In this document: one piece after another, positions 22,179-46,942 of the stretch
How the letters are laid out: every line of letters begins with the position of its first letter
Numbering within the stretch: the first letter of the stretch is position 1
Source: Rhodospirillaceae bacterium
GTDB lineage: Bacteria; Pseudomonadota; Alphaproteobacteria; Thalassobaculales; Thalassobaculaceae
Reading direction: 5' to 3'
Assembly: GCA_002722775.1 (NCBI GenBank)
Contig: PBMU01000004.1
Location: 48,224 to 112,223, forward strand
DNA: 64,000 nt
Notes under the pieces: generated by a model
The model's database searches: none
The model's input: the letters and a program-made list of their open reading frames with translations, nothing else
Told to the model about the DNA's origin: nothing
Position numbers and translations under genes: made by a program

Positions 22179-22198
22179 AGTGTTATCCTTATGGTGGG

Positions 22199-22534: not shown

Positions 22535-22545
22535 AGCTCTGTCCT

Positions 22546-22866: not shown

Positions 22867-22870
22867 AGTG

Positions 22871-25234: not shown

Positions 25235-25266
25235 TATACATCCGTAGTAATAGTGAATTAGTAGAA

Positions 25267-25292
25267 GGAATAAAGGCACCAATGAAGGTGCC
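25267..25292 (-). terminator. Candidate intrinsic terminator after the 25338 gene
   Basis: On the minus strand: GGCACC-ttcatt-GGTGCC followed by TTTATT. Short 6-bp stem. Confidence 0.4.
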
Positions 25293-25337
25293 CTTAGTAT
25301 TACTAGTAGCTAGGCTACATCAACACAGGCTATGAGA

Positions 25338-25835: not shown

Positions 25836-25923
25836 TAGTAAATTCCTTACATGAGATTGATATTACAATTGATTAATGGTGTAGTACATCTTTATTCTAG
25901 TAGTACCATCTAGGACTAGCAGT

Positions 25924-26790
25924 CTATTTCCCGTACAGTTTACACATATCACGGGCCATAGTATCCAGAGTAGTAACGTCGATGGTGTGGTTGCCTCTAG
26001 TACCTGCTAGTACTTTGGCGTCACCGGTGGTCGTCGATACTACCATGTGTTTCTTATTACGGATATGGGAGTAGAGCGCGTTGTTAAAGTAGCGGGGTAT
26101 CTTTCTACTAAAGTCATACGTACCGCCACTAGGAACAATCTTACTAGAAGCATCTTCCATTTTACCCATTTGCTCGTGGGAGATAACTACAGTATTATAT
26201 TGTGCGCCCTGCATATAGTCAAGAAACTTCTCAAGGTATCGCCCCTGACTACGCCAGTGTTTGAACTCTTCGAATTCATCCTTACCCATATCCAGTTTAC
26301 GAGTAGCAAGAGCATTAGCACTACTAGCAAGCTGAGTAAAGCTATCCCATACTACTACCCATTCATTAGGGTCCAGACTATTCAGTGTCCACTCGTTGAT
26401 AATACCATTAGTGAACTCACCAGCTTTGATAGCAGGCACTTCCTTATTCAATTCTCTGCACTCTGCGCACGCAGGAGTAATAGCAGGCTTATTCATAAGG
26501 ATACCATGCGCGTCACACATCTGAGCTTTAGTACCATTGGCAAGGAACATAGCACTATTAACAAAGTTATAGTTGTCCTTATTATCATACACCGGCTGCA
26601 CATAGATATTGCGTAACCATGCTGGTGGTAGGTTGGCTAATAGTGACCGGCCATTCTCACCGTCGATGTACAGTACCTTGAACTTAGATGCCAGTGACAG
26701 TGCTAGTGTTGTCTTACCTGTCAGTGAGGCACCATATATAATGGTAGACTGCGCACTAGATTGCTTTGCTACGACTGTGGCCTGTGGCAT
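25924..26790 (-). CDS. Sak4 / AAA_24-like RecA-fold ATPase (recombination), 288 aa
   Basis: Walker A IIYGASLTGKTTLAL followed by LYIDGENG. Walker B-like VVVWDSF. Confidence 0.65.
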   Translation of the reverse strand: MPQATVVAKQSSAQSTIIYGASLTGKTTLALSLASKFKVLYIDGENGRSLLANLPPAWLRNIYVQPVYDNKDNYNFVNSAMFLANGTKAQMCDAHGILMNKPAITPACAECRELNKEVPAIKAGEFTNGIINEWTLNSLDPNEWVVVWDSFTQLASSANALATRKLDMGKDEFEEFKHWRSQGRYLEKFLDYMQGAQYNTVVISHEQMGKMEDASSKIVPSGGTYDFSRKIPRYFNNALYSHIRNKKHMVVSTTTGDAKVLAGTRGNHTIDVTTLDTMARDMCKLYGK

Positions 26791-27038
26791 TATTCAGACT
26801 CCTCTTCGTTACTACCAGTGGGCTCTGCCACGTAGCCTAACTCTGTTAGTACTGCTGCGCACAACAGGATAGCTTTGGCATTTGCTACTATCCATTGAGG
26901 CTTCACATTCCAGCCAGTCTGACGCAACTCACTACTGACGGATAAGTCCAGTAATGCTTGGTAGTCTTCCGCCTCTACAAGAGTAGGGAATTCTTTGCCG
27001 TCACTGGCAGTGTAGTTTATTTTAATCTCAGTAGTCAC
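26790..27038 (-). CDS. Hypothetical acidic protein, 82 aa
   Basis: Start/stop overlaps on both sides (coupled). Confidence 0.55.
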   Translation of the reverse strand: MTTEIKINYTASDGKEFPTLVEAEDYQALLDLSVSSELRQTGWNVKPQWIVANAKAILLCAAVLTELGYVAEPTGSNEEESE

Positions 27039-28087
27039 TATTCGTCTCCTAACATTGTTGTCATAAATAAATCAGCATCACCTACTTCTGACTCTTCACC
27101 AGATTCTATCTGTTCTATCAGTTCATCCTGACGGTCCAGTAGTTGGTCCAGTGTAAAGTGGAAGTCAGGGTTAGTGAGCTTAGTGTAACTCTCTTCGTCA
27201 GTAGTACCATCCACCGGCTTAAAGATACGGGACAGTGCTGCATCGGAATACTGGCAAGCACTATCAATGTACTCACACGGACGGAAGTAAGAGTAGCAGT
27301 GCTGCCCTTGCCGTGGATAACCATAGTGCTCATACAACTTGGCCTTCTCTACCTCTACTACTAAGTCCCGTAACCAGTCAGCACGATGCTTGGTAGTTTT
27401 AACAAATGGCATCGGTACTATGTTCATACTACGGGACTGGAATACCAGATAGAGTACATCGAAACTAGCAGCCTGTCCTTTATTAGCAGCCATCAAGTCA
27501 ATGACAGCGCCGTATCCTAGAGCCTGACTACTATTCTTATAGGTGGCTTCATGGACAGACGACATACCAGTAGTCTTGAGTTCTATTACCATGTAACGTT
27601 GCTTCTCAGGATGGTACAGTACTAGGTCGATGTGACCTTCGAATGTATACCCATCTATCAAATCTATTACAAAGGTAAGCTCGATTGCTGGTACTTCTTT
27701 ACCATCTTGCATTACTCGTGCTACTTCCCATCCATCTAGGTAGCTGTACACGCCAGCTTGGTAGCGCTTGATGAATAAGTCTGTTGCTACTAGCGCAGTC
27801 CAGATAGATTTCTTACTGGCTTGTTCCCCGTCAGTACCAATGTCTTCGATGTCGTGGGTATAAGCCAGCATACACTGTACCATGCACTGCTCGTAAGAGT
27901 AGCCAGCAATAGCAGACTGAATACCCATTGCTACTGCGTGTCCATAGCTGAATGTTACTGACTCACGATTAGCCTTAATAGCGAACTTAGAATCCAGCTC
28001 GAATTTACGAGGGCAATTCTGTAGTGTTAGCTGGCGACTGTAAGACAGACCAGTATGAGTGATGTTGTAGTAGTCGAGTTTAGCCAT
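27038..28087 (-). CDS. PD-(D/E)XK exonuclease with Cas4-like Cys cluster, 349 aa
   Basis: N-terminal LQNCPRKFEL. Core HIDLVLY...MVIELKTT (D...ExK). C-terminal HCYSYFRPCEYIDSAC cysteines. Confidence 0.7.
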   Translation of the reverse strand: MAKLDYYNITHTGLSYSRQLTLQNCPRKFELDSKFAIKANRESVTFSYGHAVAMGIQSAIAGYSYEQCMVQCMLAYTHDIEDIGTDGEQASKKSIWTALVATDLFIKRYQAGVYSYLDGWEVARVMQDGKEVPAIELTFVIDLIDGYTFEGHIDLVLYHPEKQRYMVIELKTTGMSSVHEATYKNSSQALGYGAVIDLMAANKGQAASFDVLYLVFQSRSMNIVPMPFVKTTKHRADWLRDLVVEVEKAKLYEHYGYPRQGQHCYSYFRPCEYIDSACQYSDAALSRIFKPVDGTTDEESYTKLTNPDFHFTLDQLLDRQDELIEQIESGEESEVGDADLFMTTMLGDE

Positions 28088-28089
28088 TA

Positions 28090-28362
28090 CTAGCCCCTTG
28101 CTCGTTTTAGTAAGCGGAGTGGTACTACTTCTTCTCGCGTGTGGTAGAAGTTAGCAGGCTTACCATCAAATTCAGTACCGTGTAATTCAGAACTCTTAGG
28201 ATAGTGCACATGGAATCCTGAAGGAGTAGTAGTAGTAGTAACAGTAGCCTTGTGACACTGGCCACGTTTGAAGATGTCAGATACCACAGGGTCAGGCACT
28301 ACTATACGTACCAGTACTACATCACCTTCTCGCAACATGTAAGCATCGTTAGGTAAATTCAT
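28090..28362 (-). CDS. Hypothetical protein, 90 aa
   Basis: Start moved to ATG 28362 (GGAGAAtacta-ATG, TAATG overlap with the upstream stop). Confidence 0.55.
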   Translation of the reverse strand: MNLPNDAYMLREGDVVLVRIVVPDPVVSDIFKRGQCHKATVTTTTTPSGFHVHYPKSSELHGTEFDGKPANFYHTREEVVPLRLLKRARG

Positions 28363-28610
28363 TAGTATTCTCCAATGGATTGAATGTGACAATGAGGAGT
28401 AGCGCCAAGACTAGCAGTGCATACCTCTTCGTAACGTTCAGCGTGGAAAGTAGTATTATCTTCCACTAAGTCTGGCGCTTCCTTATCTAACTGCTCCAGT
28501 AGTAACTGGTGTGCTATCTCTTTACTGCGTGCTACTGCTACTGCATAGGCACCAATTGGATAGCACCCAGTAAAGCAGATTGCATATACCTTGGGATTAA
28601 TCATTGGCAT
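28362..28610 (-). CDS. Hypothetical protein, 82 aa
   Basis: GAGGAGaatgagta-ATG RBS. Confidence 0.6.
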   Translation of the reverse strand: MPMINPKVYAICFTGCYPIGAYAVAVARSKEIAHQLLLEQLDKEAPDLVEDNTTFHAERYEEVCTASLGATPHCHIQSIGEY

Positions 28611-28636
28611 TACTCATTCTCCTCTCATTAGTAGTC

Positions 28637-29134
28637 TTATCCGAAATCACTCAAGTCCATACTAGCATCAAGAGCCTTACTAGTTGTAGCCTTGGACTTA
28701 GTCTTGGGAGCAGTCTCAACATTAGCAAGCTTGAGCATACCACTCACCAGTATATTGAGCTGGGCATCTGTTAGTATATGCGTCAGCTCAGGGAACTGTT
28801 GAAGATTGCGACGGATAGCAGTACTAAGGCTACGAATCTGTGGAGTATCTTCCACTAGTGCTGCGTCCAACTCCTTCATACTAGCAATGAATGACTCTGC
28901 GTCCAAACCAGTAACATCATGCAATTCGTCAGCGAACTTGTAAGTACCACGCTCCTCTTGCTGCTCTTGGTGTAGCTCCAGCTTGGACTTCTGCTCTGCA
29001 ATACGCAGTGTCATATTATCCAACTGTTTCGGTTTACCAGTGGTATCTACACCATCTTCTTTATCAGTCTTGATATTAGTAGCAGCCTTTGATTTAGCTG
29101 CTCGTAACTTAGCTTGCAGGTCGGCTAGTGCCAT
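28637..29134 (-). CDS. Hypothetical protein, 165 aa, with acidic C-terminal tail ...MDLSDFG
   Basis: Good ORF. C-terminus resembles the tails of the 36299 and 37438 proteins. Confidence 0.6.
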   Translation of the reverse strand: MALADLQAKLRAAKSKAATNIKTDKEDGVDTTGKPKQLDNMTLRIAEQKSKLELHQEQQEERGTYKFADELHDVTGLDAESFIASMKELDAALVEDTPQIRSLSTAIRRNLQQFPELTHILTDAQLNILVSGMLKLANVETAPKTKSKATTSKALDASMDLSDFG

Positions 29135-29412
29135 TAGAAGTCCTCCGCATTAATATCTGAAGAGCCTAAGTCTAGTACGAATGTTAGCTTGTTGCCTTCA
29201 ATAGTACTGGTAAGTTTAGCAAAAGGGTAGCGCACCTTGAATGCATCATCCTCATACTTCTCCTTCTGAACACCCTTTCTAGCAGTACGCATGAAGCGTC
29301 TTACTACTTCTGGGTTCTCACTGTTGGATGGTATGAGACTAGCACGTTTTAATTCCTTTAGTGTCTGCCATACTTCTGCCCATCTACGTCTCTTCTTTAG
29401 AGTTGTTGTCAT
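29134..29412 (-). CDS. Hypothetical basic protein, 92 aa, C-terminus ...DINAEDF
   Basis: GAGGAAacaatcc-ATG RBS. Confidence 0.6.
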   Translation of the reverse strand: MTTTLKKRRRWAEVWQTLKELKRASLIPSNSENPEVVRRFMRTARKGVQKEKYEDDAFKVRYPFAKLTSTIEGNKLTFVLDLGSSDINAEDF

Positions 29413-29692
29413 GGATTGTTTCCTCTAGTAGTGTAAAATCGCCTAATGGTTCACGGGGTTTGCTGAGGCTTACACTGAAAGTACTAGTATCCTCGTCATA
29501 CTTAATTGATAGTACAGTTCTCTCTAACTCTATCCCGAGTACAGATAGCTCTGCCTTCAAATTGTTCAACGCGCGTCGTAGTCCTACTCGCACATTGTTA
29601 TACGCGGTACTAGTTTTAAACTTAATCGTTATATCACTCTCTTCGGTAGTGGTCTTATCCACTAGTAACTGAATTATCTGTGCATATTGCAT
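29384..29692 (-). CDS. Hypothetical protein, 102 aa
   Basis: ORF overlaps the next gene by 29 nt. Confidence 0.55.
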   Translation of the reverse strand: MQYAQIIQLLVDKTTTEESDITIKFKTSTAYNNVRVGLRRALNNLKAELSVLGIELERTVLSIKYDEDTSTFSVSLSKPREPLGDFTLLEETIHDNNSKEET

Positions 29693-30156
29693 AACGACTC
29701 CTTACCTTCTCTATTATCTAAGATACCGTCCCTATAGTCAAGTAAACGTTGAAATATCTTTCGTTGTACTGTGCAAGGTAGCACTCCGAATACTATAGTC
29801 ATGGGGTTCCAGTACTCTCTCATATCAGTAATAGTAGCTGTCACTACCGGACTCAAAGAACCACAACAGCTGGCACAAGTACTTCCATAGGGCATTATAC
29901 TGGCACAACAGTGATGTACATCATGGCACCGTAGACACTGCTGTTGGTAGAATGTGACATACTGGTGGTCACGATGCACACTAGGGGCATAATCGAGTAG
30001 TAGCTTGGCCAATTCATGCTGGCTTCTGTAGTCATGGTCCTTACTACTGACTGGATTACGCTCGAAGTAATAGAGCCACCCTACGAACAGGGCAGCAATA
30101 TTATCTTCCTTCTCAGCACTAAGCTCGTTGGAGTACATGGCTGTTATACCAGTCAC
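29674..30156 (-). CDS. Cys/His-rich protein, 160 aa (possible metal-binding)
   Basis: CLRCHDVHHCCASIMPYGSTCASCCGS. No clear SD. Alternative start at 30138. Confidence 0.45.
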   Translation of the reverse strand: MTGITAMYSNELSAEKEDNIAALFVGWLYYFERNPVSSKDHDYRSQHELAKLLLDYAPSVHRDHQYVTFYQQQCLRCHDVHHCCASIMPYGSTCASCCGSLSPVVTATITDMREYWNPMTIVFGVLPCTVQRKIFQRLLDYRDGILDNREGKESLCNMHR

Positions 30157-30778
30157 TGTGGTGTGCTATTAGTTTCTGCATTAGTAAGCAGTCATAGGTA
30201 GCGGAATGTGCCAGTCCATCCTCTACTACTATTCCTACATTACGACAGGCTTCTATCAGCTTGATACGAGGCTTATCCTTTTCCCATAGTGCTGCGAATA
30301 GTGGCATGATGTCGAGCCAGTAATCACCAATGGGTTGTGATGGTACTTGTATACCAGTCTGCTCTACTGTCTGGTGCCACATCTTTTTGTCGAAGGTACT
30401 CCATTGTACCAGTATGCGGCCTTTGCATAGTAGAGATACTGCCTGCACGTCGTCGGCACTCATGGCCTTGGCTCCATGCATACGTAGTGCTGTACGGTCC
30501 AATCCATGTACTGCTAATGCGTGCGGATTAATTTGTACTGTTGGTAGGAAGTACTGCTGGGTTACAGTAACACCGTCAGCCAGTCGTAGTATTGCCAGCT
30601 CAATGATTTGGTCAGACTTGCCCACACCAGTAGTCTCAGTATCCACCAGTAATACATTCAGTACTTGCTCCAGTATATAGCAGACTGCGCCTACCTTTGC
30701 CAGTCGTGTCTCAATATCAGTACCTTTCATCTGCTTAATATTGTAGTCCAACCCATCTTGGGTAATATCAGTAATCAT
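30119..30778 (-). CDS. DEDDh (DnaQ-like) 3'-5' exonuclease, 219 aa
   Basis: LLVDTETTGV (Exo I), IELAIL, HSATYDCLLM (Exo III, H-x4-D). Confidence 0.75.
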   Translation of the reverse strand: MITDITQDGLDYNIKQMKGTDIETRLAKVGAVCYILEQVLNVLLVDTETTGVGKSDQIIELAILRLADGVTVTQQYFLPTVQINPHALAVHGLDRTALRMHGAKAMSADDVQAVSLLCKGRILVQWSTFDKKMWHQTVEQTGIQVPSQPIGDYWLDIMPLFAALWEKDKPRIKLIEACRNVGIVVEDGLAHSATYDCLLMQKLIAHHSDWYNSHVLQRA

Positions 30779-31230
30779 TACTTGTTTCCTTTTTTGTTGG
30801 TTGTTACCTTAGCGCTACCTGCTACCTTAGCGGTTTTGCTTGCGTCGTACTGTGCTAGTGTTACCTGTACTATCCCATGCACAGTCTTAATGGTAATAAG
30901 CTGGCTCAAGTGCAAGCCATAGTTAGCACCATTCTGCACTGGAAGTCGTCGCTCTGCTGATAGGTGGGAACAGAACTTATCCAAGTTTAGGGGTGTTACT
31001 GCTAGTGGCTCCTTCTGCTGGCCAATGGCCTGTTCCATCTTAGGGATAGCAAACAAGTACCGCAGTACTAGCTCTTCCAGTTGTGCCTTAGTGAGCTTGC
31101 CTGCCTGTACTAATCCGGATAGTACTTCCAAGTCACCAAATAGTACTTCTCGTTGTTCTTCCAGTGTCAGGTCTGTTAGTACTTCTGCAGGGTCCTTGCG
31201 TTGTACTTCATTGTCATTACTAGTAGTCAT
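30778..31230 (-). CDS. Hypothetical protein, 150 aa
   Basis: Start set at ATG 31230 (GGAGGctata-ATG). The track start 31242 is a TTG inside the SD. Confidence 0.55.
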   Translation of the reverse strand: MTTSNDNEVQRKDPAEVLTDLTLEEQREVLFGDLEVLSGLVQAGKLTKAQLEELVLRYLFAIPKMEQAIGQQKEPLAVTPLNLDKFCSHLSAERRLPVQNGANYGLHLSQLITIKTVHGIVQVTLAQYDASKTAKVAGSAKVTTNKKGNK

Positions 31231-33490
31231 TATAGCCTCCAAGTTCTTTCTGTAGTTTCTTTGCGTCTAAGTAGCCGCTGTCTCGTAGTGATACAAAGCG
31301 GCGATGAATATTACTATCGGGGTCTTTCGCAGCCTTAATATAGGCTAGTGCTTTCTTGCGGAAGTGATTAAGTTTCTCTGCTAGTGTGTCTCCTTTTATC
31401 TTCTGATTAACAAGGCATTTGTGTAGCATACTATACTTGTTATCAATGTATTTACCAGTATAGTTACCACTGTACATAACCTCTAAGTGGTGACGCGCAC
31501 GAGTAACACCAGTATAGAATGTCTCTCGTTGTGCTGCCACGCTGTGACTATGATGCAGGATTAGCAGTACACTAGGGAATTCAGAACCCTGTGACTTGTG
31601 TACTGTTAGTGCATACATAGGTAGTAGTGTTCCGATAGCATTGGTGGATAACTTCACTTCCATTCCATCACCAACGGGAGTTAGTACTACAGTATGACTA
31701 GCTTGGTTACTAGTCTCTTCATCTTCCGTCGCCGCATACTCCTGTGCCATTAGTTCTTCCAGCTCCATATCATCTACTTCTGCTTCATGCTGTTCATCAC
31801 TAATACCAAACACCTCTTCACGATGGCCCTTCTTAGCTTGGCCCCATCTAGTAAGATACGGGGATGCTTCTAGTGGCTTAGGTCCACGGTACTTATCATT
31901 CTTGTAGATGTCAGTAATATGGTATGGTAGTTTGTTATGTAGTACTCTATCGCCTATAGACCAGTATGTCTTACCAAAGCGGGTTATTACTTCGAATACT
32001 GGTAGGTTATCCCTGTCACTAATACCCTGCATAATGTACTTATTCAGTTCGATGGTGCCAAAGGCTTTATTGAATGGTATTAGTACCTGTGTTTCCTCTG
32101 GGTCAAATCGGTAATCCATTATACGCTTCTGGAGCAGTAGGCCAGTATTCTTAAGTGCTACTTCTGGCGTCCAGTTCTTAACATAGCGTGTGAACTTGAT
32201 ACTATCCTCGCCCTCAGTTCTACTGAGTTTCTGTGCTTCATCATCCTTAATGGGCTTGCCTGTTAGTATCCGATGAGCCAATTGAGTAATGATACCAACG
32301 TTACGATATACTTCTGTTAGTTCTATTACTGGTAACTCTAGCTGTTTGAATCCTAGTATACCATCATTGAATGGTGGCGGTAACTGGTTCAAGTCGCCGA
32401 GGAATATCCACTGTGTATTACTATCCATTGGTAGTGCAGATTCTAGACACTCATACAAGTCCAGTAGTACACTACCCGCTTCCTCTACCACTATCAGGTC
32501 GAATGCAGGTAGTATCTGTCCACCAGCTTCTCGCCATGCAGTACCATAAGTAGGCGCGAATATCTGACTAGTCCGCACACCAGTAACCTGAGTATCATCT
32601 TCTATCTCTGCTTCTACTGGCACGAATTCTAGTAGATTATGTAGAGTAGTAGCATTACATTTCAGCTCTTCCTGTAGTGCCTCAGTAATGTTACGAATAG
32701 CTTGATTGGTGAATGATACTATTGCTACTCGTAGTTTACCTTCCTTCACAAACTTCTTGGTATATTCACCACTCTCGAACTTACCTAGTCTACCACTATC
32801 GAGGAGTGCTTTTAGTATGCACTTCACAGTAGTAGTCTTACCAGAACCTGCAGCACCTATTAGTACGAATGACTCACCTGCTACTGCTAGTTGTACTGCT
32901 GCTTTCTGCTCAGTATTCAAGTGTTCGAATGTTACTTGGTCTTTATTGAGCTGTGGTGCTACCTTAGCGGTTGTGTCTACTGGTGCTGGTGGCGGCGCTG
33001 GTGCTACCTTAGCGGTAGTAGTTGTGCTAGGTCCAGACTTATCACTGCCATTACGAGTAGGACTAGTAAACACTGGGCGACGAACACTAGTACTCGGCCT
33101 ATCTTGCGTAGTCTGCGTTTGCGCTGGTACTGTTTTCGCTGGCGTAGTGCTGCCAATCTTAGAGAAGCGTGCTCTGAGACGTTGTGCCGCGTCACTAGCA
33201 GTAGACTTATTAAGCTTAGTAGCAGTCTCATTGGTAGACTCCTTTGTTATGCCATTATTAAGCAGGTTAGTAGAAACGCTAGTGTTGCTGCTAGGCTTAT
33301 TGTCACTATCAGCAGTGTTGGTGATAGCTTCCACATCTCTGCTATTGTTAGCCATAGGTTGTGCATTAGTAGTCTCCTTAGACTCAGTTGCTGGTGGTGT
33401 TGGTGCCAGTAGTGATGCACCAGCTTTAGCCTCTTGTAGTGCTAGTGCTTTCTTTCTCTTTAGTTCTGCTATACGTTTCGCAAGACTCAT
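31220..33490 (-). CDS. SF1 RecD/Dda-like DNA helicase with ~190-aa low-complexity basic N-terminus, 756 aa
   Basis: Walker A LIGAAGSGKTTTV, Walker B DLIVVEEAGS, and C-terminal ALTVHKSQGSEFPSVLLIL typical of RecD-like helicases. Confidence 0.85.
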   Translation of the reverse strand: MSLAKRIAELKRKKALALQEAKAGASLLAPTPPATESKETTNAQPMANNSRDVEAITNTADSDNKPSSNTSVSTNLLNNGITKESTNETATKLNKSTASDAAQRLRARFSKIGSTTPAKTVPAQTQTTQDRPSTSVRRPVFTSPTRNGSDKSGPSTTTTAKVAPAPPPAPVDTTAKVAPQLNKDQVTFEHLNTEQKAAVQLAVAGESFVLIGAAGSGKTTTVKCILKALLDSGRLGKFESGEYTKKFVKEGKLRVAIVSFTNQAIRNITEALQEELKCNATTLHNLLEFVPVEAEIEDDTQVTGVRTSQIFAPTYGTAWREAGGQILPAFDLIVVEEAGSVLLDLYECLESALPMDSNTQWIFLGDLNQLPPPFNDGILGFKQLELPVIELTEVYRNVGIITQLAHRILTGKPIKDDEAQKLSRTEGEDSIKFTRYVKNWTPEVALKNTGLLLQKRIMDYRFDPEETQVLIPFNKAFGTIELNKYIMQGISDRDNLPVFEVITRFGKTYWSIGDRVLHNKLPYHITDIYKNDKYRGPKPLEASPYLTRWGQAKKGHREEVFGISDEQHEAEVDDMELEELMAQEYAATEDEETSNQASHTVVLTPVGDGMEVKLSTNAIGTLLPMYALTVHKSQGSEFPSVLLILHHSHSVAAQRETFYTGVTRARHHLEVMYSGNYTGKYIDNKYSMLHKCLVNQKIKGDTLAEKLNHFRKKALAYIKAAKDPDSNIHRRFVSLRDSGYLDAKKLQKELGGYNDY

Positions 33491-33501
33491 AACAGTACCC
33501 C

Positions 33502-34626
33502 TTATAGTTCGAATTTATATTTACGCATATAAAGCCTAGTCATACTAGAATCAGGATGCGCTTTACAGAATGCTAGTGCTTTAGCTTTAGCCTCTTCCTG
33601 CTGCTCAGGTGTCTTGGCTTGTAGAGTAGTAGTGACTTTGGTTTTAGTCTCATACTCGAATACAGCAGCCTTATTAGCACTAATTTCATCATCTAGGTCT
33701 ATGAATCCAAAGTCTGCTTCATAATCCAGTAGTCGTTCTAGTTTAGATTCTAGACTACGCACCACTACTAGACTATTCTCACGCTCATAATCTTCATAAG
33801 TCAGTCCATCTTTTACTAGTGCTATTACTTCCCGCAAGTCCTTCTCGCGTAAGTCAGTGGCAGCAGTATCCATGCAATGACGTATCTTTGCTAGTTGTCT
33901 GCTAGAGTAGCCTGAGCGAGCTGTTAGTACTTTCATAGCCCATCCATTCAGTAGCTTCTTATTAGCCATATCTCTAGTAGTACGCAGACGGTACTCTTTG
34001 AAGCGTGCTACTAGTGAGCGCTCGTCGTCGGCCTTGTCGTATGTTGCATCAATATCCGCATCATCAAAGGCATCTAGCAGTTTGCTGGTAATAGTAGAGT
34101 ACCGGCCTGACTCTAGCATCTTGATGTAGCCGTGTAGAGTATCCTTTAATCTTTTATCTGTTAATGGATTCTCTGCGTTATTAACAATAGTAGGTAGGTT
34201 AATGCGCTCTAACTGGTCTGCGCCAGTACTAATGATTAGTCCAATGAATTCACGTATAGCATCCTTAACGTCAGTAATACCACGGTCAGTAATGTCAGTA
34301 ATAGGACAGTGGCACTCCAGCAAGTCGTAGTCATTCAGTATGGCCAGTAGTACAAGATACAATTCATTATTGAATTTTACGTCATAGTAGATGTCTAGTA
34401 TTTGACGTCGTGGCATAGAGAATATGGGATGGATGTCTGGTACTAGTACATGCCCTTTCTCAGTTCGAAGGAACATGCTAGATATTGCCAGCTTGACGCC
34501 ACTAACACGACAATACGTCACTACTGCCGTTGTTTGATGCAAGTTAGCATCGCGTGTTATGTTGGCTCCTATGACTGGCTGGTATTTTGTGCTAGTGGTG
34601 CGAGCATTGCGAGACTTGGTATTCAT
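33502..34626 (-). CDS. Hypothetical early protein, 374 aa
   Basis: Long ORF with no recognisable motif. Confidence 0.6.
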   Translation of the reverse strand: MNTKSRNARTTSTKYQPVIGANITRDANLHQTTAVVTYCRVSGVKLAISSMFLRTEKGHVLVPDIHPIFSMPRRQILDIYYDVKFNNELYLVLLAILNDYDLLECHCPITDITDRGITDVKDAIREFIGLIISTGADQLERINLPTIVNNAENPLTDKRLKDTLHGYIKMLESGRYSTITSKLLDAFDDADIDATYDKADDERSLVARFKEYRLRTTRDMANKKLLNGWAMKVLTARSGYSSRQLAKIRHCMDTAATDLREKDLREVIALVKDGLTYEDYERENSLVVVRSLESKLERLLDYEADFGFIDLDDEISANKAAVFEYETKTKVTTTLQAKTPEQQEEAKAKALAFCKAHPDSSMTRLYMRKYKFEL

Positions 34627-34639
34627 TGGTTATATATCC

Positions 34640-34846
34640 TTATTCACAATCTTGGTTATTGGTAGAGTTATTGGTAGAGTTAATGGCAGTATTGCTAGTA
34701 ATAGTGGAGCCAGTATAGATAGTGTTAGAGCTGGTGGCGATAGAGGCGATAGAGGCCCGACGACGCCTACGGCAGTTATCAAAATACTGCTGCCTTCTGC
34801 GCTGGTTACTATTACTCATACGCTTTGGTCTATTGGAAGTATTCAT
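34640..34846 (-). CDS. Arg-rich low-complexity small protein, 68 aa
   Basis: NQRRRQQYFDNCRRRRR. Contains in-frame tandem DNA repeats (12-nt x2, 9-nt x2). Coding status uncertain. Confidence 0.4.
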   Translation of the reverse strand: MNTSNRPKRMSNSNQRRRQQYFDNCRRRRRASIASIATSSNTIYTGSTITSNTAINSTNNSTNNQDCE

Positions 34847-34860
34847 GTTTGTCGTGGCTC

Positions 34861-35256
34861 CTATAGTGACTCTATCATTTTATTAGTATGATTACGTATT
34901 ACTTCTGTTAGTGCTTCATTAAGTCCGATTACTATTCTCTTATCAGTAACAGTATTTACTAGATGAAACCTACGAGTACCATTATTAAAGCGCGGTACTA
35001 TATCTACTAGTTGCCATTCAGTGTCAGCAGTGAACATGCATAGTGTTCCGTCATGTGGAATACCTTGCATAGATGTTAGTTCTAGTGTGCCTTTAATGTC
35101 ATAGTGAGCATAGTACTTATTAATATAAGTAGTAACAGATTCAAAGTGTAGTGGAAATGTAACCTTAGAAGTAGCAGTATTCATAGCAGTAATAATCCTA
35201 GTAGTAATAGTCGTAATAGTGACAATAGTAGCTGGTAGCCAGTAAGCAAGAATCAT
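34861..35256 (-). CDS. First gene of the minus arm, 131 aa (start uncertain: 35256 or 35184)
   Basis: The track start 35379 lies upstream of a near-consensus promoter (35296..35324) and has no SD. First in-frame ATG after the promoter is 35256. It is preceded by a 3-codon mini-ORF (ATG 35264, AAGGA SD) that ends in an ATGA overlap. Confidence 0.45.
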   Translation of the reverse strand: MILAYWLPATIVTITTITTRIITAMNTATSKVTFPLHFESVTTYINKYYAHYDIKGTLELTSMQGIPHDGTLCMFTADTEWQLVDIVPRFNNGTRRFHLVNTVTDKRIVIGLNEALTEVIRNHTNKMIESL

Positions 35257-35295
35257 GCCAACATGCGTAATCCTTTGGACTTCCGACCAACTAGC

Positions 35296-35324
35296 ATTAT
35301 CCCATATATAGCTAGACAGGTCAA
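35296..35324 (-). promoter_or_regulatory. Near-consensus sigma70 promoter for the minus (replication) arm
   Basis: Minus strand reads TTGACC - 17 nt (ending TGG, an extended -10 TGn) - GATAAT, with the AT-rich tract cttatattattata immediately upstream. Confidence 0.7.
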
Positions 35325-35341
35325 TATAATAATATAAGCGT

Positions 35342-35369
35342 AGGGATGCTACCTGAGGCACACTAGCAA
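35342..35369. repeat. Left arm of a 28-bp perfect inverted repeat
   Basis: agggatgctacctgaggcacactagcaa is the exact reverse complement of 35873..35900. Confidence 0.95.
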
Positions 35370-35590
35370 TACCAGTCATGCGAGGATACGCAAGGTACTA
35401 TGAGGCACTAGAGGAATCGGGGTACTCCCATACCATACATCATAGCACCCTACATCATAGCACTGGCTAGTACCATACTACCACCAGCTAGTACTATCGG
35501 AATGCATACCTACCACCAGCAAACCCTAGCAGTAGCACAAGATAGCGCAATAGCAGTAAAACTATGTATCTTCTATGTTGTATATTATAG

Positions 35591-35636
35591 ACCCCCCTAT
35601 TCAAATTTTATTTCTTTTTTCCTATACCCCCCTATT
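35591..35636 (+). repeat. ACCCCCCTATT direct repeat pair bracketing a 24-bp AT-rich core
   Basis: Copies at 35591..35601 and 35626..35636, flanking caaattttatttcttttttcctat. Confidence 0.85.
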
Positions 35637-35665
35637 ACTATACCAGTACGGTACTATACCAGTAC
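35637..35665 (+). repeat. 13-nt direct repeat ACTATACCAGTAC x2
   Basis: Copies at 35637..35649 and 35653..35665. Confidence 0.85.
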
Positions 35666-35872
35666 ACAGTAGGTAGCTAGTGACTACCGGAATGCATGGC
35701 TATTGGATGAATGGGCGAGTAGTAGGCATAGTGGCATAGTGGCATGATGTGGTAATAGTGGGCATAGGTAGTAGCATAGTAGTAGTATATGGATATATGT
35801 GGGATGGTATGTAGGTAGGCAGGGGGGTGCCCAATTTCCTTGCGTGCATCGCGTGATTGACGTTACTTCTAG

Positions 35873-35900
35873 TTGCTAGTGTGCCTCAGGTAGCATCCCT
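35873..35900. repeat. Right arm of the 28-bp perfect inverted repeat
   Basis: ttgctagtgtgcctcaggtagcatccct. The arms are separated by 503 bp (35370..35872). Confidence 0.95.
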
Positions 35901-36082
35901 GCCAGCATACCAGTACACACCACCAGCATCTCACCAGCAAGCACGCCACCAGCACGCCACCAGCACTCCCTGTAGAACGTCTGAGCATCATTATGACTAT
36001 AGATAGTGGTAGTATGGTATAGGGTAGTAGTAGATAGAGCCACCAGCACCCGCATAGAGCGTCCTAGTAGCATCATTGGCAG

Positions 36083-36138
36083 TAGCCACCAGCATATAGC
36101 ATAGTGGTAGTAGCCACCAGCATATAGCATAGTGGTAG
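36083..36138 (+). repeat. Perfect 28-bp tandem duplication
   Basis: tagccaccagcatatagcatagtggtag x2. Each unit carries one Chi complement and one ATAGTGG motif. Confidence 0.95.
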
Positions 36139-36150
36139 TAGGTCAGGACT

Positions 36151-36226
36151 AGTGGTAGTGGTAGTGGTAGTGGTAGTGGTAGTGGTAGTGGTAGTGGTAG
36201 TGGTAGTGTGAGGTAGTGGTAGTGGC
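36151..36226 (+). repeat. Hexanucleotide microsatellite (AGTGGT)n
   Basis: Nine perfect units over 36151..36204, then degenerate units (agtgtg aggt AGTGGT AGTGGC). Confidence 0.95.
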
Positions 36227-36250
36227 AGAGTAGCCACCAGCAGGCAGGCA

Positions 36251-36278
36251 CAAAAAAGCCCCACACTAGGCAGGGCTT
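36251..36278 (-). terminator. Intrinsic terminator of the 36299..36985 gene
   Basis: Minus strand: AAGCCC-tgcctagtgtg-GGGCTT followed by TTTTG, about 20 nt after the stop codon. Confidence 0.55.
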
Positions 36279-36298
36279 GTAGTAGGACTGGCGACCTG

Positions 36299-36985
36299 TT
36301 ACATGAAGTCCGACTCATCCAGTTCATCAGCGCTGGCTTCTGGATTCAGTGTTTTCTGGATGTTGTCTGCCCATAGCTCTAGCACTGGCAAGTGCTGCTC
36401 AATCGCTGCATCGTCTAGAGTAGTGGCGAACTCATTCAAGATGTCGCCCATACGCTCAACAACTTGAGTTTTAACAGTAGCCAGTGACGCGACAGTGAAC
36501 TTAGCAGTAGCCTTAGCAATGGTAAAGGCTTTGGCTTTCTCTGCCATGCTAGTGCTAGCAAGGTAGCTTTCCAGAACTGCGATAGTAGCAGCCAACATCT
36601 CTTTGGTGACTTTGATAGAGCCGCCGCGCTTGGCCAGACCTGCTTCCAGTACTGCCAGACCATCAGTGTAGTCAGTGATACCTACTGCGACATTTTCTTT
36701 GTTTGCTGCTTCGATGTGAGCATTAACCAAATCCTGTACAGTAGCGACTTGTTTTTCTGACAATCCAGAGTCAGCCAGCAGTGCCACCATATCAACTGTA
36801 ATCAGTGTGGCATTGAACGGCTTGCGCTTGCTGCCCTTCTCTGCATCCACTTCTACGTCATTGGTAGTAATGGTGCCAGACGCTAGTGCCTTCTGTAGTT
36901 TCTCGAAAGCATCGCTGCCTGCTTTGGCAAAGTTAAAGTTATAGACAGTGGTGAAAGGTTTTGTTGCAACAGTTTGATTAGACAT
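36299..36985 (-). CDS. Stand-alone Ala-rich acidic protein, 228 aa, C-terminus ...ADELDESDFM
   Basis: Start set at MSNQ (AAGGAtgactact-ATG). The track N-terminal extension has no SD. Has its own promoter candidate and terminator. Function unknown. Confidence 0.7.
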   Translation of the reverse strand: MSNQTVATKPFTTVYNFNFAKAGSDAFEKLQKALASGTITTNDVEVDAEKGSKRKPFNATLITVDMVALLADSGLSEKQVATVQDLVNAHIEAANKENVAVGITDYTDGLAVLEAGLAKRGGSIKVTKEMLAATIAVLESYLASTSMAEKAKAFTIAKATAKFTVASLATVKTQVVERMGDILNEFATTLDDAAIEQHLPVLELWADNIQKTLNPEASADELDESDFM

Positions 36986-37074
36986 AGTAGTCATCCTTAT
37001 AAGTAAATTGTACCTAGCATTATTGCTAGTGCCTTGAGCGGCAGGTGTGGCGCTGTGTTGTGCCACTGGTAAAC

Positions 37075-37103
37075 ATTCTAGTCGAACCCCACACATAGTG
37101 CAA
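37075..37103 (-). promoter_or_regulatory. Candidate promoter for the 36299..36985 gene (TTGCAC-17-TAGAAT)
   Basis: Read on the minus strand. The -35 element overlaps the palindrome GTGCAA-gtact-TTGCAC (37098..37114). Confidence 0.35.
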
Positions 37104-37114
37104 GTACTTTGCAC
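37098..37114. promoter_or_regulatory. Operator-like palindrome GTGCAA-N5-TTGCAC
   Basis: 6-bp perfect arms with a 5-bp spacer, overlapping the candidate -35. Confidence 0.3.
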
Positions 37115-37359
37115 AAAAATAATTACTACTAATAGCAGTCTGACACACTGGTAGTGCCACTCCCTCATTACTGTTAGCAGTCACTTACATTCCAGGCCAG
37201 TATGGGTAGGGGTGTGGGAATTTTTTATGCTAGTCCGGCGAATGTCCTAAATAGGGGTTTCTAAAATTCCGCCAAAATTTTGAGCTAACATATACATACT
37301 ACCACTAGCCTCCACACCGTCCCCGCCACTTCCCTAGTACTGCTAATTACTAATATGCC

Positions 37360-37388
37360 TTGACCCGCCACCGCCGCCGCCCTATAAT
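37360..37388 (+). promoter_or_regulatory. Near-consensus sigma70 promoter for the plus (virion) arm
   Basis: TTGACC - 17 nt (cgccaccgccgccgccc) - TATAAT, about 50 nt upstream of the GAGGAG RBS and GTG start at 37438. Confidence 0.7.
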
Positions 37389-37437
37389 AATGCATATACA
37401 TGAGTTATTCCTGACCCCCTAGCCCTGAGGAGCCGCC

Positions 37438-37977
37438 GTGGACCGTAATACTAAGATAGTAGTAGAGCTGCTTTCCAAGTCCAGCCTGCGCCCAGTAGAT
37501 ATAGCAGATATGTTTGATGTTAGTGAGTCTGCCATTGCTAATATTGCATCACAGTACTCTACTGAGATTGCTAATGCTAAGGCTACTAAATCTGTCACTG
37601 ATATGGCTATGGATGCACGACTGGAGAATCTGGAAGCTACACTACTGAATCAGATTGAGGCCAAGGCACCCTTTGAGACGGATTTGCGAGTACTAGCAGG
37701 ACTGTACAAAGTAATCAATGGTGCTACTCGTCGTGTAGAGAAACAACAAGGACCTGCTACTGCTACTGCCAGCATAGTACTGAATCAACGCTTTGTGCAG
37801 AATAATATTACATTCTCCAAAGATAGTGCTGGCAGGGTAGTGCAGGTCGCCGATAATAAGCTACAGACTGCTAGTGCTGACCATGTACGTGAAATGGCAT
37901 CACAGCTATTACTGGAAGCGGATACAACAACTACTGTTACCCCTGATGAGGAGATTGACGAAAGTGATTTCAACTAA
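37438..37977 (+). CDS. Small terminase subunit candidate, 179 aa, C-terminus ...DEEIDESDFN
   Basis: GTG start with GAGGAG 6 nt upstream. N-terminal HTH-like segment (RPVDIADMFDVSESAIANIASQY). First gene of the arm, two genes upstream of TerL. Confidence 0.45.
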   Translation: MDRNTKIVVELLSKSSLRPVDIADMFDVSESAIANIASQYSTEIANAKATKSVTDMAMDARLENLEATLLNQIEAKAPFETDLRVLAGLYKVINGATRRVEKQQGPATATASIVLNQRFVQNNITFSKDSAGRVVQVADNKLQTASADHVREMASQLLLEADTTTTVTPDEEIDESDFN

Positions 37978-44690: not shown

Positions 44691-46193
44691 ATGGCCTTTG
44701 TAGTGACTGCGACATCAGAAGGTACTGTTAAGTCAGGAACGTACCATAGTATGCGAGTAGATGTTATTGACTTTGACGCTCCTATTGCTAGTGTGGCATG
44801 GGTACAGACTAGTGGTATAGCCACTAAGATTGGAGAGCCTACGAAATCAGTAACACGTCAACGTACTCCACGCGTAGGTGAAGATTCAGTAGTGGGCTAT
44901 CAGGTTACTGTTACTGATGCTCAGGGCGCCACCGCCACAGCCACTACATCTATCACTATCGAAGGTGAAGCATTCGACTCAGACAAACTGAACTTAATCA
45001 GTAAGGATTTGAATGGCGGAGTATCACTGTGGTCGTACACCTGTATCAATACTCTGGCACAGCTTACTGCTGCAGGCTTCTGGGACTCAGCCATAGGATT
45101 GGAACCGTTTGATATTATTAAGGTGCATTGCGCTGATGGTCCTCATGAGCTACAACTGGTTGGAGGAGCAGCTCAACACATCAATAGTATACAGAATAAA
45201 GTAGCAGTAGCTACCCAAGGGCAAGGAAGAAACAGAGAATATCCCACATTACGTAAATTGGATACAAACCCCCTACTACTCCCTGCGGACCAGAGCGCAA
45301 GCTCACTAATGTGGCCCTATCTTGTAGATTTATCTGTTAGTGGCGAGGAAGGTTATGCGCTATTCTGGGCTACGGACCACTCCAACCATGTAGGCTCGGG
45401 AACATGGATGGCTACTGCTCCTACACCCTTAGGGCCATGGAAGCATCATGGTATGGTCTTTCGAGATGATGTTACTGGAGGAGAGCAGCATGAGACTCCC
45501 AGCGTGGTATGGGATGAAGTTAACTCACGCTGGCTGCAGTACTATCAACTTAAATTTGTTCCCGGATATATCAACCAGCTTACACTAGTAGCTACTGCTG
45601 ACCGCGTTACAAATGCCGATGGCACTCCCACTACATGGACAGTTATCGGAGTAGCTATTCCAGAGTATTATACCAATAATGCAGGTGACGGGCATACGGG
45701 CTACTTCAAACCTTTCCGCTATGACGGTGGCTGGTATGGATTCGGGCTATACGGTGGAACTGATAATAGTAGAAAGGCTTTTTATACTTCTTATAATAAT
45801 GGCCTGACTTACCAGCCACATCCGCAAGTATTACAAAACGGGCAACACCTACTAGCACATCTAGAAGGCTTTGACCCAGAGAACTGGATGATTAAGCATA
45901 ACTCAGGCGCCACTGTTGTCTATAATAACCAGCTATGGTTGATTGCACCAGCAGGGGCTGGAGCGTCCGGTGGTGCAGAAATTCCTATGGGTAAAATATG
46001 TGCCTTCCGTGTTGGTAGCGATGGAGTAACACTAGGCAAGGCTGTGGATATAACCCCGCCACTACAGGCATGGGAAGACCAGACACTTGGAGTAGACCAA
46101 TTGGGCAGTGCTGTTATGTGGCAAGGCAGAATGTATGTAGTGTATCGTCAAGGCGGTGGTGACGGTGGGTTTGGACTGATGGAGGTTTTATAA
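44691..46193 (+). CDS. Tailspike-like protein 1, 500 aa: shared N-terminal anchor module plus putative glycosidase/beta-propeller-like domain
   Basis: ctAGGAGa RBS. The N-terminal ~160 aa are paralogous to the 46943/1298 protein. The C-terminal part has WATDHSNH, LGPWKHHG and ETPSVVWD motifs reminiscent of GH32/43-type propellers (weak evidence). Confidence 0.5.
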   Translation: MAFVVTATSEGTVKSGTYHSMRVDVIDFDAPIASVAWVQTSGIATKIGEPTKSVTRQRTPRVGEDSVVGYQVTVTDAQGATATATTSITIEGEAFDSDKLNLISKDLNGGVSLWSYTCINTLAQLTAAGFWDSAIGLEPFDIIKVHCADGPHELQLVGGAAQHINSIQNKVAVATQGQGRNREYPTLRKLDTNPLLLPADQSASSLMWPYLVDLSVSGEEGYALFWATDHSNHVGSGTWMATAPTPLGPWKHHGMVFRDDVTGGEQHETPSVVWDEVNSRWLQYYQLKFVPGYINQLTLVATADRVTNADGTPTTWTVIGVAIPEYYTNNAGDGHTGYFKPFRYDGGWYGFGLYGGTDNSRKAFYTSYNNGLTYQPHPQVLQNGQHLLAHLEGFDPENWMIKHNSGATVVYNNQLWLIAPAGAGASGGAEIPMGKICAFRVGSDGVTLGKAVDITPPLQAWEDQTLGVDQLGSAVMWQGRMYVVYRQGGGDGGFGLMEVL

Positions 46194-46894: not shown

Positions 46895-46942
46895 GTGTAC
46901 TACTTATAGTGCATCATTATTAATATCTAGGAGATTACTATT

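What the first reader, a model, noticed from the sequence alone, without database searches (positions are those of the whole stretch)
35342..35900. A 28-bp perfect inverted repeat brackets a 503-bp segment just upstream of the minus-arm promoter
35342..35369 (agggatgctacctgaggcacactagcaa) is the exact reverse complement of 35873..35900. A 28-bp perfect inverted repeat is essentially impossible by chance in 45 kb. The left arm sits 18 bp upstream of the -35 of the near-consensus promoter at 35296..35324. The enclosed segment carries the AT-rich core, two Chi sites and several direct repeats. Possible roles are: an invertible switch (28 bp is about the minimum for RecA-dependent exchange, and flipping would reverse the two enclosed Chi sites and change what lies upstream of the promoter); a long-range stem in single-stranded replication or packaging intermediates; or paired binding sites for a looping regulator. 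No invertase or serine/tyrosine recombinase was recognised.
Basis: seen in the sequence. Interest (0 to 1): 0.7.

Follow-up and report, generated by a model that had tools for sequence, protein, structure and literature searches.

The report
Conserved mirror-symmetric control module in phage
The perfect 28-bp inverted repeat is real, but it is the outer edge of a fixed, mirror-symmetric non-coding module found across this family of marine and Pseudomonas podoviruses, most likely a replication origin or a packaging start site and not a flippable switch.

Summary
35342-35369 and 35873-35900 are a perfect 28-bp inverted repeat, the only one in this 45,645-bp phage genome, and it cannot be chance.

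It is not an isolated oddity. In relatives whose TerL is only 34-62% identical, including Pseudomonas phages PaMx41, 119X and PaP2, the same place holds the same architecture. That place is 2-4 kb upstream of the terminase gene, between the replication arm and a terminator-capped leftward operon. The architecture is inverted outer arms, usually arrays of 8-9-bp repeats, around a central AT-rich core. The core carries a TCAAATTT motif that always points the same way. Arm sequences differ between relatives, so the two arms co-evolve.

The invertible-switch reading is not supported. No recombinase was found. All 47 assemblies that carry the diagnostic ORF have the same orientation. Core polarity is constant across the family. 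The "Chi" sites are explained by the genome's general k-mer bias.

The best reading is a cis-acting dyad element with paired binding sites around an unwinding or promoter core. I favour a replication origin (about 0.4). A P1-like pac site is the main rival (about 0.25). One Logan contig stops exactly at the arm edge and remains unexplained.

The parts
35342..35369 (.). Left arm of the perfect 28-bp inverted repeat (AGGGATGCTACCTGAGGCACACTAGCAA). It is the outer left boundary of the dyad module.
35873..35900 (.). Right arm, the exact reverse complement of the left arm. It is the outer right boundary of the module.
35370..35872 (.). Enclosed 503-bp non-coding segment. Its left half is weakly reverse-complementary to its right half (z 4.4 against shuffles). 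As single-stranded DNA the whole region folds into one long imperfect hairpin (z -4.3).
35557..35640 (+). Central AT-rich core (GC 0.25-0.29). It contains TATAGACCCCCC (35586-35597) and CCCCCCTATT at 35592-35601 and 35627-35636. It also contains TTCAAATTTT (35600-35609) and TATACCCCCC (35623-35632). The IR symmetry centre is 35621. The motif and its polarity are conserved in relatives.
35401..35411 (+). Partial third copy of the arm core (TGAGGCAC-TAG), 47 nt inside the left arm.
35082..35093 (-). Partial fourth copy of the arm core (AAGGCACACTAG on the minus strand). Together with the left arm it brackets the minus-arm promoter.
   Evidence: (I2)
35296..35324 (-). Sigma-70-like promoter for the replication (minus) arm: TTGACC-17-GATAAT with an extended TG. 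It lies 17 nt outside the left arm.
36256..36278 (-). Intrinsic terminator that ends the leftward 228-aa gene and shields the module from read-through. The equivalent terminator is present in L005, L009 and PaMx41.
35432..35463 (+). 15-nt direct repeat, 2 copies (ACCATACATCATAGC), inside the left half.
   Evidence: (D10)
35493..35702 (+). Pair of 20-nt direct repeats (ACTAYCGGAATGCAT...) at 35493-35512 and 35683-35702, straddling the core.
   Evidence: D9
35481..36242 (+). Ten copies of (C)CACCAGC(A), all on the same strand: two inside the segment and eight to the right of it.
36068..36225 (+). Tandem repeats flanking the module: a 28-mer x2.6 and (TAGTGG)x16. Copy number varies between samples, and contigs from independent assemblies break here.

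Best explanation
The two 28-bp arms are the outer pair of mirror-image protein-binding sites of a conserved, non-coding, dyad-symmetric cis-element of about 560 bp.

The element sits between the replication/early arm and the packaging/structural arm. A promoter lies just outside it on the left. A terminator closes it off on the right.

I propose that it is the phage replication origin. Copies of a phage-encoded DNA-binding protein would occupy the two arms in opposite orientation. These arms are arrays of 8-9-bp repeats in relatives, and here one long site plus partial copies. The protein would bend or wrap the 100-250 bp on each side and open the central AT-rich core. That core carries a promoter-like TCAAA...TATAC element of fixed polarity, which may supply a primer transcript.

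Shown:
- the repeat itself;
- the family-wide architecture;
- co-variation of the arms;
- the central AT core;
- fixed polarity;
- no sign of inversion in the assemblies examined.

Inferred:
- protein binding;
- origin function;
- transcript priming.

The segment is a fixed element, not a switch.
For: Architecture across the family:
- The IR is unique and beyond chance.
- Of 27 non-redundant TerL-anchored loci, 14 have a long-range IR centred 1.8-4.2 kb upstream of TerL. The density is 0.247 per kb there and 0.027 per kb elsewhere.
- Relatives at 62% and 57% TerL identity show concentric inverted pairs. In L005 these are 6498-6569/6885-6956 and 6583-6601/6853-6871. In L009 they are 3061-3105/3544-3588 and 3130-3159/3490-3519.
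- The outer arms of those relatives are arrays of 8-9-bp period: AAAACCTA, GGGAGCTTA and their complements.
- PaMx41, PaP2, 119X and Neko have CAAGGT arrays facing ACCTTG arrays.
- Arm sequences are unrelated between relatives but complementary within each genome.

Core:
- The lowest-GC stretch lies at 0.40-0.57 of the inner segment in 15 of 15 modules.
- The core motif is S-run, TAT, TCAAATTT, AT-rich spacer, TATAC, S-run, where an S-run is a run of G or of C. It has the same polarity in every hit.
- The inner halves are reverse-complementary beyond shuffles (z at least 3) in 10 of 15 modules.
- The half to the right of the core has positive GC skew in 12 of 15 modules. That fits a G-rich outward transcript.

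Setting:
- A terminator faces the module in four lineages.
- Neighbouring genes are replication genes: SF1 helicase, exonucleases, PolA and a DUF3987 protein.
Against: - No experiment or read-level datum ties the module to replication.
- GC and AT skew follow gene orientation, not position relative to the module, so composition gives no support for an origin.
- There are no DnaA boxes in the module.
- No initiator protein was identified. The adjacent 374-aa and 228-aa proteins have no family match, and their structure models were unusable (pLDDT 43 and 52).
- The window phage has one 28-bp site per side and not an iteron array.
- The GenBank records of PaP2, 119X and PaMx41 all begin inside the homologous module. 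A Jamesmcgillvirus (Shea) is reported as terminally redundant. Both points would suit a packaging site as well.
Confidence: 0.4

Rival explanations
1. Packaging initiation (pac) site of a headful phage, built like P1 pac. The small terminase would bind the repeated elements on both sides, the DNA would bend, and the first cut would fall in the central AT-rich region. Packaging would then proceed in one direction.
For: - P1 pac has hexamer clusters HEX4 and HEX3 flanking an IHF site and the cleavage site (PMC10028697).
- The PaP2, 119X and PaMx41 records all start at the same nucleotide inside the homologous module, 29 nt left of the core. Neko reads straight through that point.
- Shea, of the same genus, has 'terminally redundant ends' by PhageTerm.
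- The module lies within 1.5-2.5 kb of terS-terL.
- The fixed polarity of the core fits unidirectional packaging.
- The nearest TerL hits outside the family include the Mu-like phage BalMu-1, and Mu-type terminases package by headful (the packaging mode is from my own knowledge).
Against: - The shared record start may be a convention copied from PaP2. The local sequence at that point differs between PaP2/Neko and PaMx41/119X.
- pac sites usually lie in or next to terS. Here a leftward operon and a terminator intervene.
- The arms are 250-500 bp apart, much wider than P1 pac.
- In the window phage, contig ends cluster in tandem repeats, not in the module.
Confidence: 0.25
2. Operator pair for a phage regulator. 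Sites at the two arms, plus the partial copies at 35082 and 35401, would be bridged by a looping repressor or activator that controls the minus-arm early promoter.
For: - The left arm is 17 nt upstream of the -35 of the promoter-like site at 35324-35296.
- A partial arm copy at 35082-35093 lies on the other side of that promoter.
- Inverted identical sites are typical of sites bound by dimeric regulators (my own knowledge).
Against: - No comparable sigma-70-like promoter was found next to the arrays in L005 or L009.
- This reading does not explain the conserved central AT core of fixed polarity or the weak dyad symmetry of the whole interior.
- No HTH-type regulator was identified beside the module.
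Confidence: 0.15
3. Boundaries of a short direct terminal repeat. The same nicking specificity, acting on inverted sites, would nick opposite strands about 530 bp apart in concatemers. Strand-displacement synthesis would then duplicate the enclosed segment at both virion ends.
For: - A length of 503-559 bp is within the range of podovirus terminal repeats; for example, 606 bp is reported for phage Kuura.
- Inverted sites would naturally give nicks on opposite strands (inference).
- The PaMx41 TerL is annotated as T7-like by HHpred.
Against: - The T7 concatemer junction has only direct CCTAAAG repeats and no inverted arrays.
- The PaMx41-group records start in the middle of the module, not at an arm.
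- No record of the family carries a terminal repeat at both ends.
Confidence: 0.07
4. Invertible segment. Recombination between the 28-bp arms, by host RecA or by the phage Sak4-like/exonuclease pair, would flip the 503-bp segment and change what lies upstream of the early promoter.
For: - 28 identical base pairs in inverted orientation.
- The phage encodes an AAA_24 (Sak4-like) protein and a PD-(D/E)XK nuclease.
- One Logan contig (ERR4691795_66588, 44,835 bp) stops exactly at 35369, the inner edge of the left arm. With k = 31, that suggests a second continuation in the reads.
Against: - 47 contigs carry the orientation-diagnostic ORF in native form, and the flipped product is absent.
- All contigs read through the region are native, including another Logan contig.
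- Core polarity is constant across the family.
- No site-specific recombinase was found.
- The arms of relatives are degenerate arrays.
- The single contig break could equally come from fold-back library chimeras or from a variant allele.
Confidence: 0.05
5. Miniature inverted-repeat transposable element (MITE) or IS remnant inserted in the intergenic region.
For: Perfect terminal inverted repeats around a short non-coding segment.
Against: - There is no target-site duplication: the flanks are ...AAGCGT and GCCAGC....
- There is no other copy in the genome.
- The arm was not found in IMG/VR or GTDB genomes, nor with its left flank in JGI metagenomes.
- The same architecture, with unrelated sequence, occupies the same site in distant relatives.
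Confidence: 0.01

Closest known systems
Dyad-symmetric replication origins: archaeal oriC with inverted ORB elements around a DUE, and HSV oriS/oriL with inverted UL9 boxes around an AT spacer (my own knowledge)
   Same: Inverted recognition sites flank a central AT-rich unwinding region. The element is non-coding and lies next to replication genes.
   Different: No initiator has been identified and there is no functional proof. The arms are 250-500 bp apart, much further than in HSV. The core is asymmetric and has a conserved polarity.
Iteron-type phage and plasmid origins such as lambda ori, P1 oriR and F ori2 (my own knowledge)
   Same: Relatives carry arrays of 8-9-bp-period repeats beside an AT-rich region.
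   Different: Classical iterons are direct repeats on one side of the AT region. Here two arrays face each other. The window phage has a single 28-bp site per side. There are no DnaA boxes.
Bacteriophage P1 pac site (PMC10028697)
   Same: Clusters of short repeats on both sides of a central region in which the terminase cuts. A bent central region is involved.
   Different: P1 pac is compact and lies inside pacA. Its hexamers are palindromic and regulated by Dam methylation. Here the element is 300-560 bp long, intergenic and separated from terS by an operon.
T7 concatemer junction (short repeat arrays either side of the terminal repeat)
   Same: Short repeat arrays surround a segment of a few hundred bp close to the terminase genes.
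   Different: Tested here: all CCTAAAG copies in T7 are in direct orientation, and none is inverted.
Invertible DNA switches: Hin/Gin/Cin, fimS and Bacteroides invertons (my own knowledge)
   Same: Inverted repeats bracket a short segment next to a promoter.
   Different: There is no recombinase gene, only one orientation in 47 assemblies, and fixed polarity across relatives.
N15-type telomere resolution site telRL/tos (my own knowledge)
   Same: Nested concentric inverted repeats in a phage that may persist as an episome (Shea).
   Different: The centre is not a palindrome, and no protelomerase domain was detected.

Membership tests
Invertible DNA switch (inverton) | Inverted repeats flanking the segment | tested here: met
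   28/28 perfect IR
Invertible DNA switch (inverton) | Serine or tyrosine recombinase encoded nearby or in the genome | tested here: not met
   Pfam scans of 27 ORFs, covering all ORFs of 143 aa or more, found no recombinase family. PHROGs and NCBIfam scans of smaller subsets also found none. ORFs smaller than that were not scanned.
Invertible DNA switch (inverton) | Both orientations present in populations | tested here: not met
   45 + 2 contigs carry the native orientation-diagnostic ORF, and the flipped product is absent. All spanning contigs are native. Only consensus assemblies could be checked, so rare flips are not excluded. One contig break at the arm edge is unexplained.
MITE / IS remnant | Target-site duplication flanking the terminal inverted repeats | tested here: not met
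   The flanks AAGCGT and GCCAGC show no duplication.
MITE / IS remnant | Multiple copies in this or other genomes | tested here: not met
   No other copy in the window. The arm has no exact match in IMG/VR or GTDB genomes, and the arm plus its left flank has none in JGI metagenomes.
Replication origin (dyad or iteron type) | AT-rich unwinding element | tested here: met
   GC is 0.25-0.29 at 35557-35640. The AT core is central in 15 of 15 modules.
Replication origin (dyad or iteron type) | Repeated initiator-binding sites | tested here: inconclusive
   Relatives have 8-9-bp-period arrays on both sides. The window has one 28-bp site per side plus two partial copies. No binding protein is known.
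Replication origin (dyad or iteron type) | Supports initiation of replication (autonomous or phage-dependent replication, marker-frequency peak) | not testable with these tools
   No read-level or experimental data are available. Compositional skew is uninformative because it follows transcription.
Replication origin (dyad or iteron type) | Host DnaA boxes, if the origin is DnaA-dependent | tested here: not met
   No TTATCCACA-like box (1 mismatch or fewer) between 34649 and 46042.
pac site (P1-like) | Repeat clusters on both sides of a central cleavage region | tested here: inconclusive
   The architecture is compatible, but the scale and location differ.
pac site (P1-like) | Virion DNA ends map to the site | not testable with these tools
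   The only indirect evidence is that the PaP2, 119X and PaMx41 records start inside the module. The PaMx41 paper is not held.
T7-type concatemer junction / short DTR | Terminal repeat present at both ends of virion DNA, with flanking direct repeat arrays | tested here: not met
   The T7 arrays are direct, whereas the arrays here are inverted. No family record shows a repeat at both ends. True ends could not be tested.
Hairpin-telomere resolution site (telRL) | Perfect central palindrome and a protelomerase gene | tested here: not met
   The centre at 35621 (TTTTTTCC|TATACCCC) is not palindromic. No protelomerase family hit was found.
Chi recombination hotspots | The octamer is over-represented beyond background and oriented with respect to DNA ends, in a host whose RecBCD reads it | tested here: not met
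   10 observed against 7.6 expected (Markov-6) outside the module; rank about 355 among octamers. The host is unknown. The copies near the module belong to a longer (G)CCACCAGCA repeat.

The most novel reading that the evidence does not exclude
The arms may be active recombination junctions. In natural populations the 503-bp core segment would then occasionally flip or be exchanged as a cassette, through the 28-bp arms and the phage's own Sak4-like/exonuclease pair. That would reverse the polarity of the origin or packaging core. The Logan contig that ends exactly at the inner edge of the left arm would be the first trace of this.
Probability: 0.07. Interest if true: 0.65.

Novelty: new member of a known kind. 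Interest (0 to 1): 0.38.

Why it matters
The module gives a concrete, testable candidate for the unmapped origin or packaging site of an abundant, globally distributed group of podoviruses. The window phage is found in more than 50 Tara and other marine assemblies. Its relatives include the Pseudomonas phages PaMx41, 119X and PaP2, which are used in anti-phage defence research. The arms differ between relatives but stay complementary within each genome. The family is therefore a natural series for finding the cognate DNA-binding protein by co-variation. For the scan itself, the result shows that a striking perfect inverted repeat need not be a switch.

Tried and rejected
- **Similarity searches.** Megablast and blastn of the region against the phage collection gave no match or only low-complexity hits.
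- **Arm searches.** Exact searches in IMG/VR and GTDB genomes (28-nt arm) and in JGI metagenomes (arm plus 11 nt of left flank) found nothing.
- **TerL as a single query.** It found no IMG/VR relative. The alignment query worked.
- **RNA families.** An Rfam scan of 34800-37500 gave no hit.
- **Compositional skew as an origin test.** Skew follows gene orientation, so it is uninformative.
- **Skew flip at the module centre.** It is seen in the window but is not consistent across relatives.
- **T7 analogy.** Rejected, because the T7 arrays are direct.
- **Contig ends as physical ends.** Rejected. Ends cluster in the 28-mer and TAGTGG tandem repeats, whose copy number varies.
- **Chi reading.** Rejected on k-mer statistics.
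- **P0124 as a diverged strain.** Rejected. Its contigs are 99.98-100% identical to the window, and the longer protein comes from a gene caller reading TAG as Gln.
- **Function of the neighbouring 374-aa and 228-aa proteins.** No Pfam, PHROG, NCBIfam or PDB match was found. There were almost no homologues for an alignment. AlphaFold models had pLDDT 43 and 52, so no fold search was run.
- **Literature.** The PaMx41 genome-ends paper (PMC5086548) is not held.
- **Flipped ORF look-up.** It was answered through the listing of cluster members instead.

Full report
**Observation**

Positions 35342-35369 (AGGGATGCTACCTGAGGCACACTAGCAA) and 35873-35900 are exact reverse complements with 503 nt between them. 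With up to three mismatches allowed, the pattern occurs only at these two places, and never in 100 dinucleotide shuffles. It is the only perfect long inverted repeat in the genome.

The window is a wrapped copy of a 45,645-bp genome: 1-18355 equals 45646-64000. The source is probably a 119-kb concatemeric MAG contig labelled 'Rhodospirillaceae bacterium'. The same sequence, in the same orientation, was recovered by MEGAHIT, SPAdes and Logan assemblies of many Tara Oceans samples. The repeat is therefore real.

**Setting**

The genome is a podovirus with SU10-like portal and capsid proteins.
- A minus-strand arm (about 19000-35300) encodes an SF1 Dda-like helicase, an RNase T-like exonuclease, a PD-(D/E)XK nuclease, an AAA_24 protein, PolA and a DUF3987 protein.
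- A plus-strand arm starts at about 37438 with terS-terL-portal.

Between the arms lie, from left to right:
- a sigma-70-like promoter on the minus strand at 35324-35296;
- the repeat-bracketed segment;
- a stretch of CACCAGCA motifs and tandem repeats;
- an intrinsic terminator (36278-36256, minus strand) that ends a leftward 228-aa gene.

No integrase or invertase domain was found.

**Relatives**

TerL has no close relatives other than near-identical copies. Distant relatives (34-63% identity) are plentiful, and the nearest cultured ones are Aeromonas phage P5 and the Pseudomonas Jamesmcgillvirus group PaMx41/119X/PaP2.

In syntenic contigs the equivalent intergenic region holds the same architecture with unrelated sequence.
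- L005 (62% TerL identity) has concentric inverted pairs at 6498-6569/6885-6956 and 6583-6601/6853-6871.
- L009 (57%) has 3061-3105/3544-3588 and 3130-3159/3490-3519.
- The outer arms of both are arrays of 8-9-bp units that face each other: AAAACCTA/AAAAACTGC against GGTTTTCGC, and GGGAGCTTA against GCTCCCGAG.
- PaMx41, PaP2, 119X and Neko have CAAGGT arrays facing ACCTTG arrays.

Across 27 non-redundant loci with enough upstream sequence, 14 have a long-range inverted repeat centred 1.8-4.2 kb upstream of TerL. That is a nine-fold excess over the rest of the loci.

In 15 of 15 modules the most AT-rich stretch is central. The core has a recognisable motif of constant polarity relative to TerL. 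It consists of a G or C run, TAT, TCAAATTT, about 20 AT-rich bases, TATAC and a second G or C run.

The inner halves are more reverse-complementary than shuffles in 10 of 15 modules. The window region folds as one long imperfect hairpin when single-stranded (z -4.3). A terminator faces the module from the right in the window, L005, L009 and PaMx41.

**What this excludes**

A MITE is excluded. There is no target duplication, no other copy anywhere, and the architecture is ancestral at this site.

An invertible switch is not supported.
- There is no recombinase.
- The core polarity is fixed across the family.
- The 172-aa ORF has its ATG 10 nt inside the segment, so it reports orientation. It is unchanged on 45 contigs. 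Two more contigs carry a longer call of the same native sequence. The product predicted for the flipped form is absent.

The T7 concatemer junction is not a good model, because all of its CCTAAAG repeats are direct.

A hairpin-telomere site is excluded by the non-palindromic centre and the lack of a protelomerase.

The two enclosed 'Chi' octamers belong to a ten-copy, same-strand (C)CACCAGC(A) repeat. Outside the module the octamer is no more frequent than its sub-words predict, in a genome with a very strong k-mer bias. The host is an unknown marine bacterium.

**What it most likely is**

The shared features are paired sites in mirror orientation, a central AT-rich core of fixed polarity, insulation from transcription, and arms that change between relatives yet stay matched within a genome. 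Together they define a cis-acting protein-binding element. I hold that general statement with a confidence of about 0.8.

For the specific function I favour a replication origin (0.4). An initiator bound in opposite orientations would wrap the flanks and open the core. The TCAAA...TATAC element may provide a primer transcript, and the downstream half is G-rich on the non-template strand in 12 of 15 modules.

Several points weaken this reading:
- compositional skew gives no support;
- there are no DnaA boxes;
- no initiator was identified.

The main rival is a P1-like pac site (0.25).
- P1 pac has repeat clusters either side of an IHF site and the cut site (PMC10028697).
- The PaP2, 119X and PaMx41 records all begin at the same nucleotide inside the homologous module.
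- A genus member is reported as terminally redundant.
- That shared start may be convention, and the paper that mapped the PaMx41 ends is not held.

An operator pair for the early promoter (0.15) and the boundaries of a direct terminal repeat (0.07) remain possible.

**Unexplained**

One Logan contig (ERR4691795_66588, 44,835 bp) ends exactly at 35369, the inner edge of the left arm. With k = 31, a 28-bp inverted repeat alone should not branch the graph. That run therefore probably contains reads with another continuation: a flipped segment, a variant allele, or fold-back chimeras. Another Logan contig reads straight through. This keeps a small probability (0.05-0.07) for recombination at the arms.

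It is also unexplained why this phage has one perfect 28-bp site per side, where relatives have degenerate arrays.

**Verdict**

The element is a new member of a known kind of phage cis-element (origin or pac-type dyad region). It has not been described in any literature I could search. It is of moderate interest, because it is conserved across an abundant phage family and is directly testable.

Noticed in passing
window 1-18355 = 45646-64000: The window wraps around a 45,645-bp genome. The source is probably a 119,476-bp NCBI MAG contig ('Rhodospirillaceae bacterium', tags CMM47_00590/00595). That would be about 2.6 tandem genome copies and is likely an assembly-merging artefact.
   Followed up: partly
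window 36068-36225: A 28-mer tandem repeat (x2.6) and (TAGTGG)x16 lie just right of the module. Copy number differs between Tara assemblies, and seven independent contigs end inside these repeats.
   Followed up: yes
window 35481-36242: Ten copies of (C)CACCAGC(A), all on the same strand, lie on both sides of the right arm. They may be a second class of binding site.
   Followed up: partly
whole window: There is extreme k-mer bias (TAGCAGTA x29, AGTAATAG x28, and others), with many out-of-frame TAGs. On short contigs 99.98-100% identical to the window, a gene caller read TAG as Gln and produced a 197-aa version of the 172-aa ORF.
   Followed up: partly
window 35369 / Logan contig L116 = L118: Contig ERR4691795_66588 (44,835 bp) stops exactly at the last base of the left arm. 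It is the only such contig on record.
   Followed up: partly
L093/L091 (PaMx41), L095/L094 (PaP2), L097/L096 (119X): Three GenBank records start at the same nucleotide inside the homologous module, 29 nt left of the AT core. In PaMx41 and 119X that point is the centre of CTTAT|ATAAG.
   Followed up: partly
L018 4625-4711 / 5480-5566: A distant relative (IMGVR_UViG_3300020036_007826) has an 87-nt near-perfect inverted repeat around 768 bp containing most of a 236-aa ORF (4983-5693), which runs on through the right arm. This differs in kind from the module described here.
   Followed up: no
window 34640-35379: ORF172 and ORF68 are called by metagenome gene callers. NCBI's consecutive locus tags (00590 for the 374-aa gene, 00595 for the 228-aa gene) imply no annotated gene between them. 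The promoter-like site lies inside ORF172. The true start may be the Met at about 35256, or the ORF may be spurious.
   Followed up: partly
window 25924-28087: An AAA_24 (Sak4-like) ATPase lies next to a PD-(D/E)XK nuclease. This is a phage recombination pair that could act on short repeats.
   Followed up: no
L102 30766-31310 (Aeromonas phage P5): The nearest cultured relative has a weaker version of the module. A 14-nt IR (CCACCAGCACCTAG / CTAGGTGCTATTGG) lies around a CACAAATTTTTTAAAA core with GC-rich flanks.
   Followed up: partly
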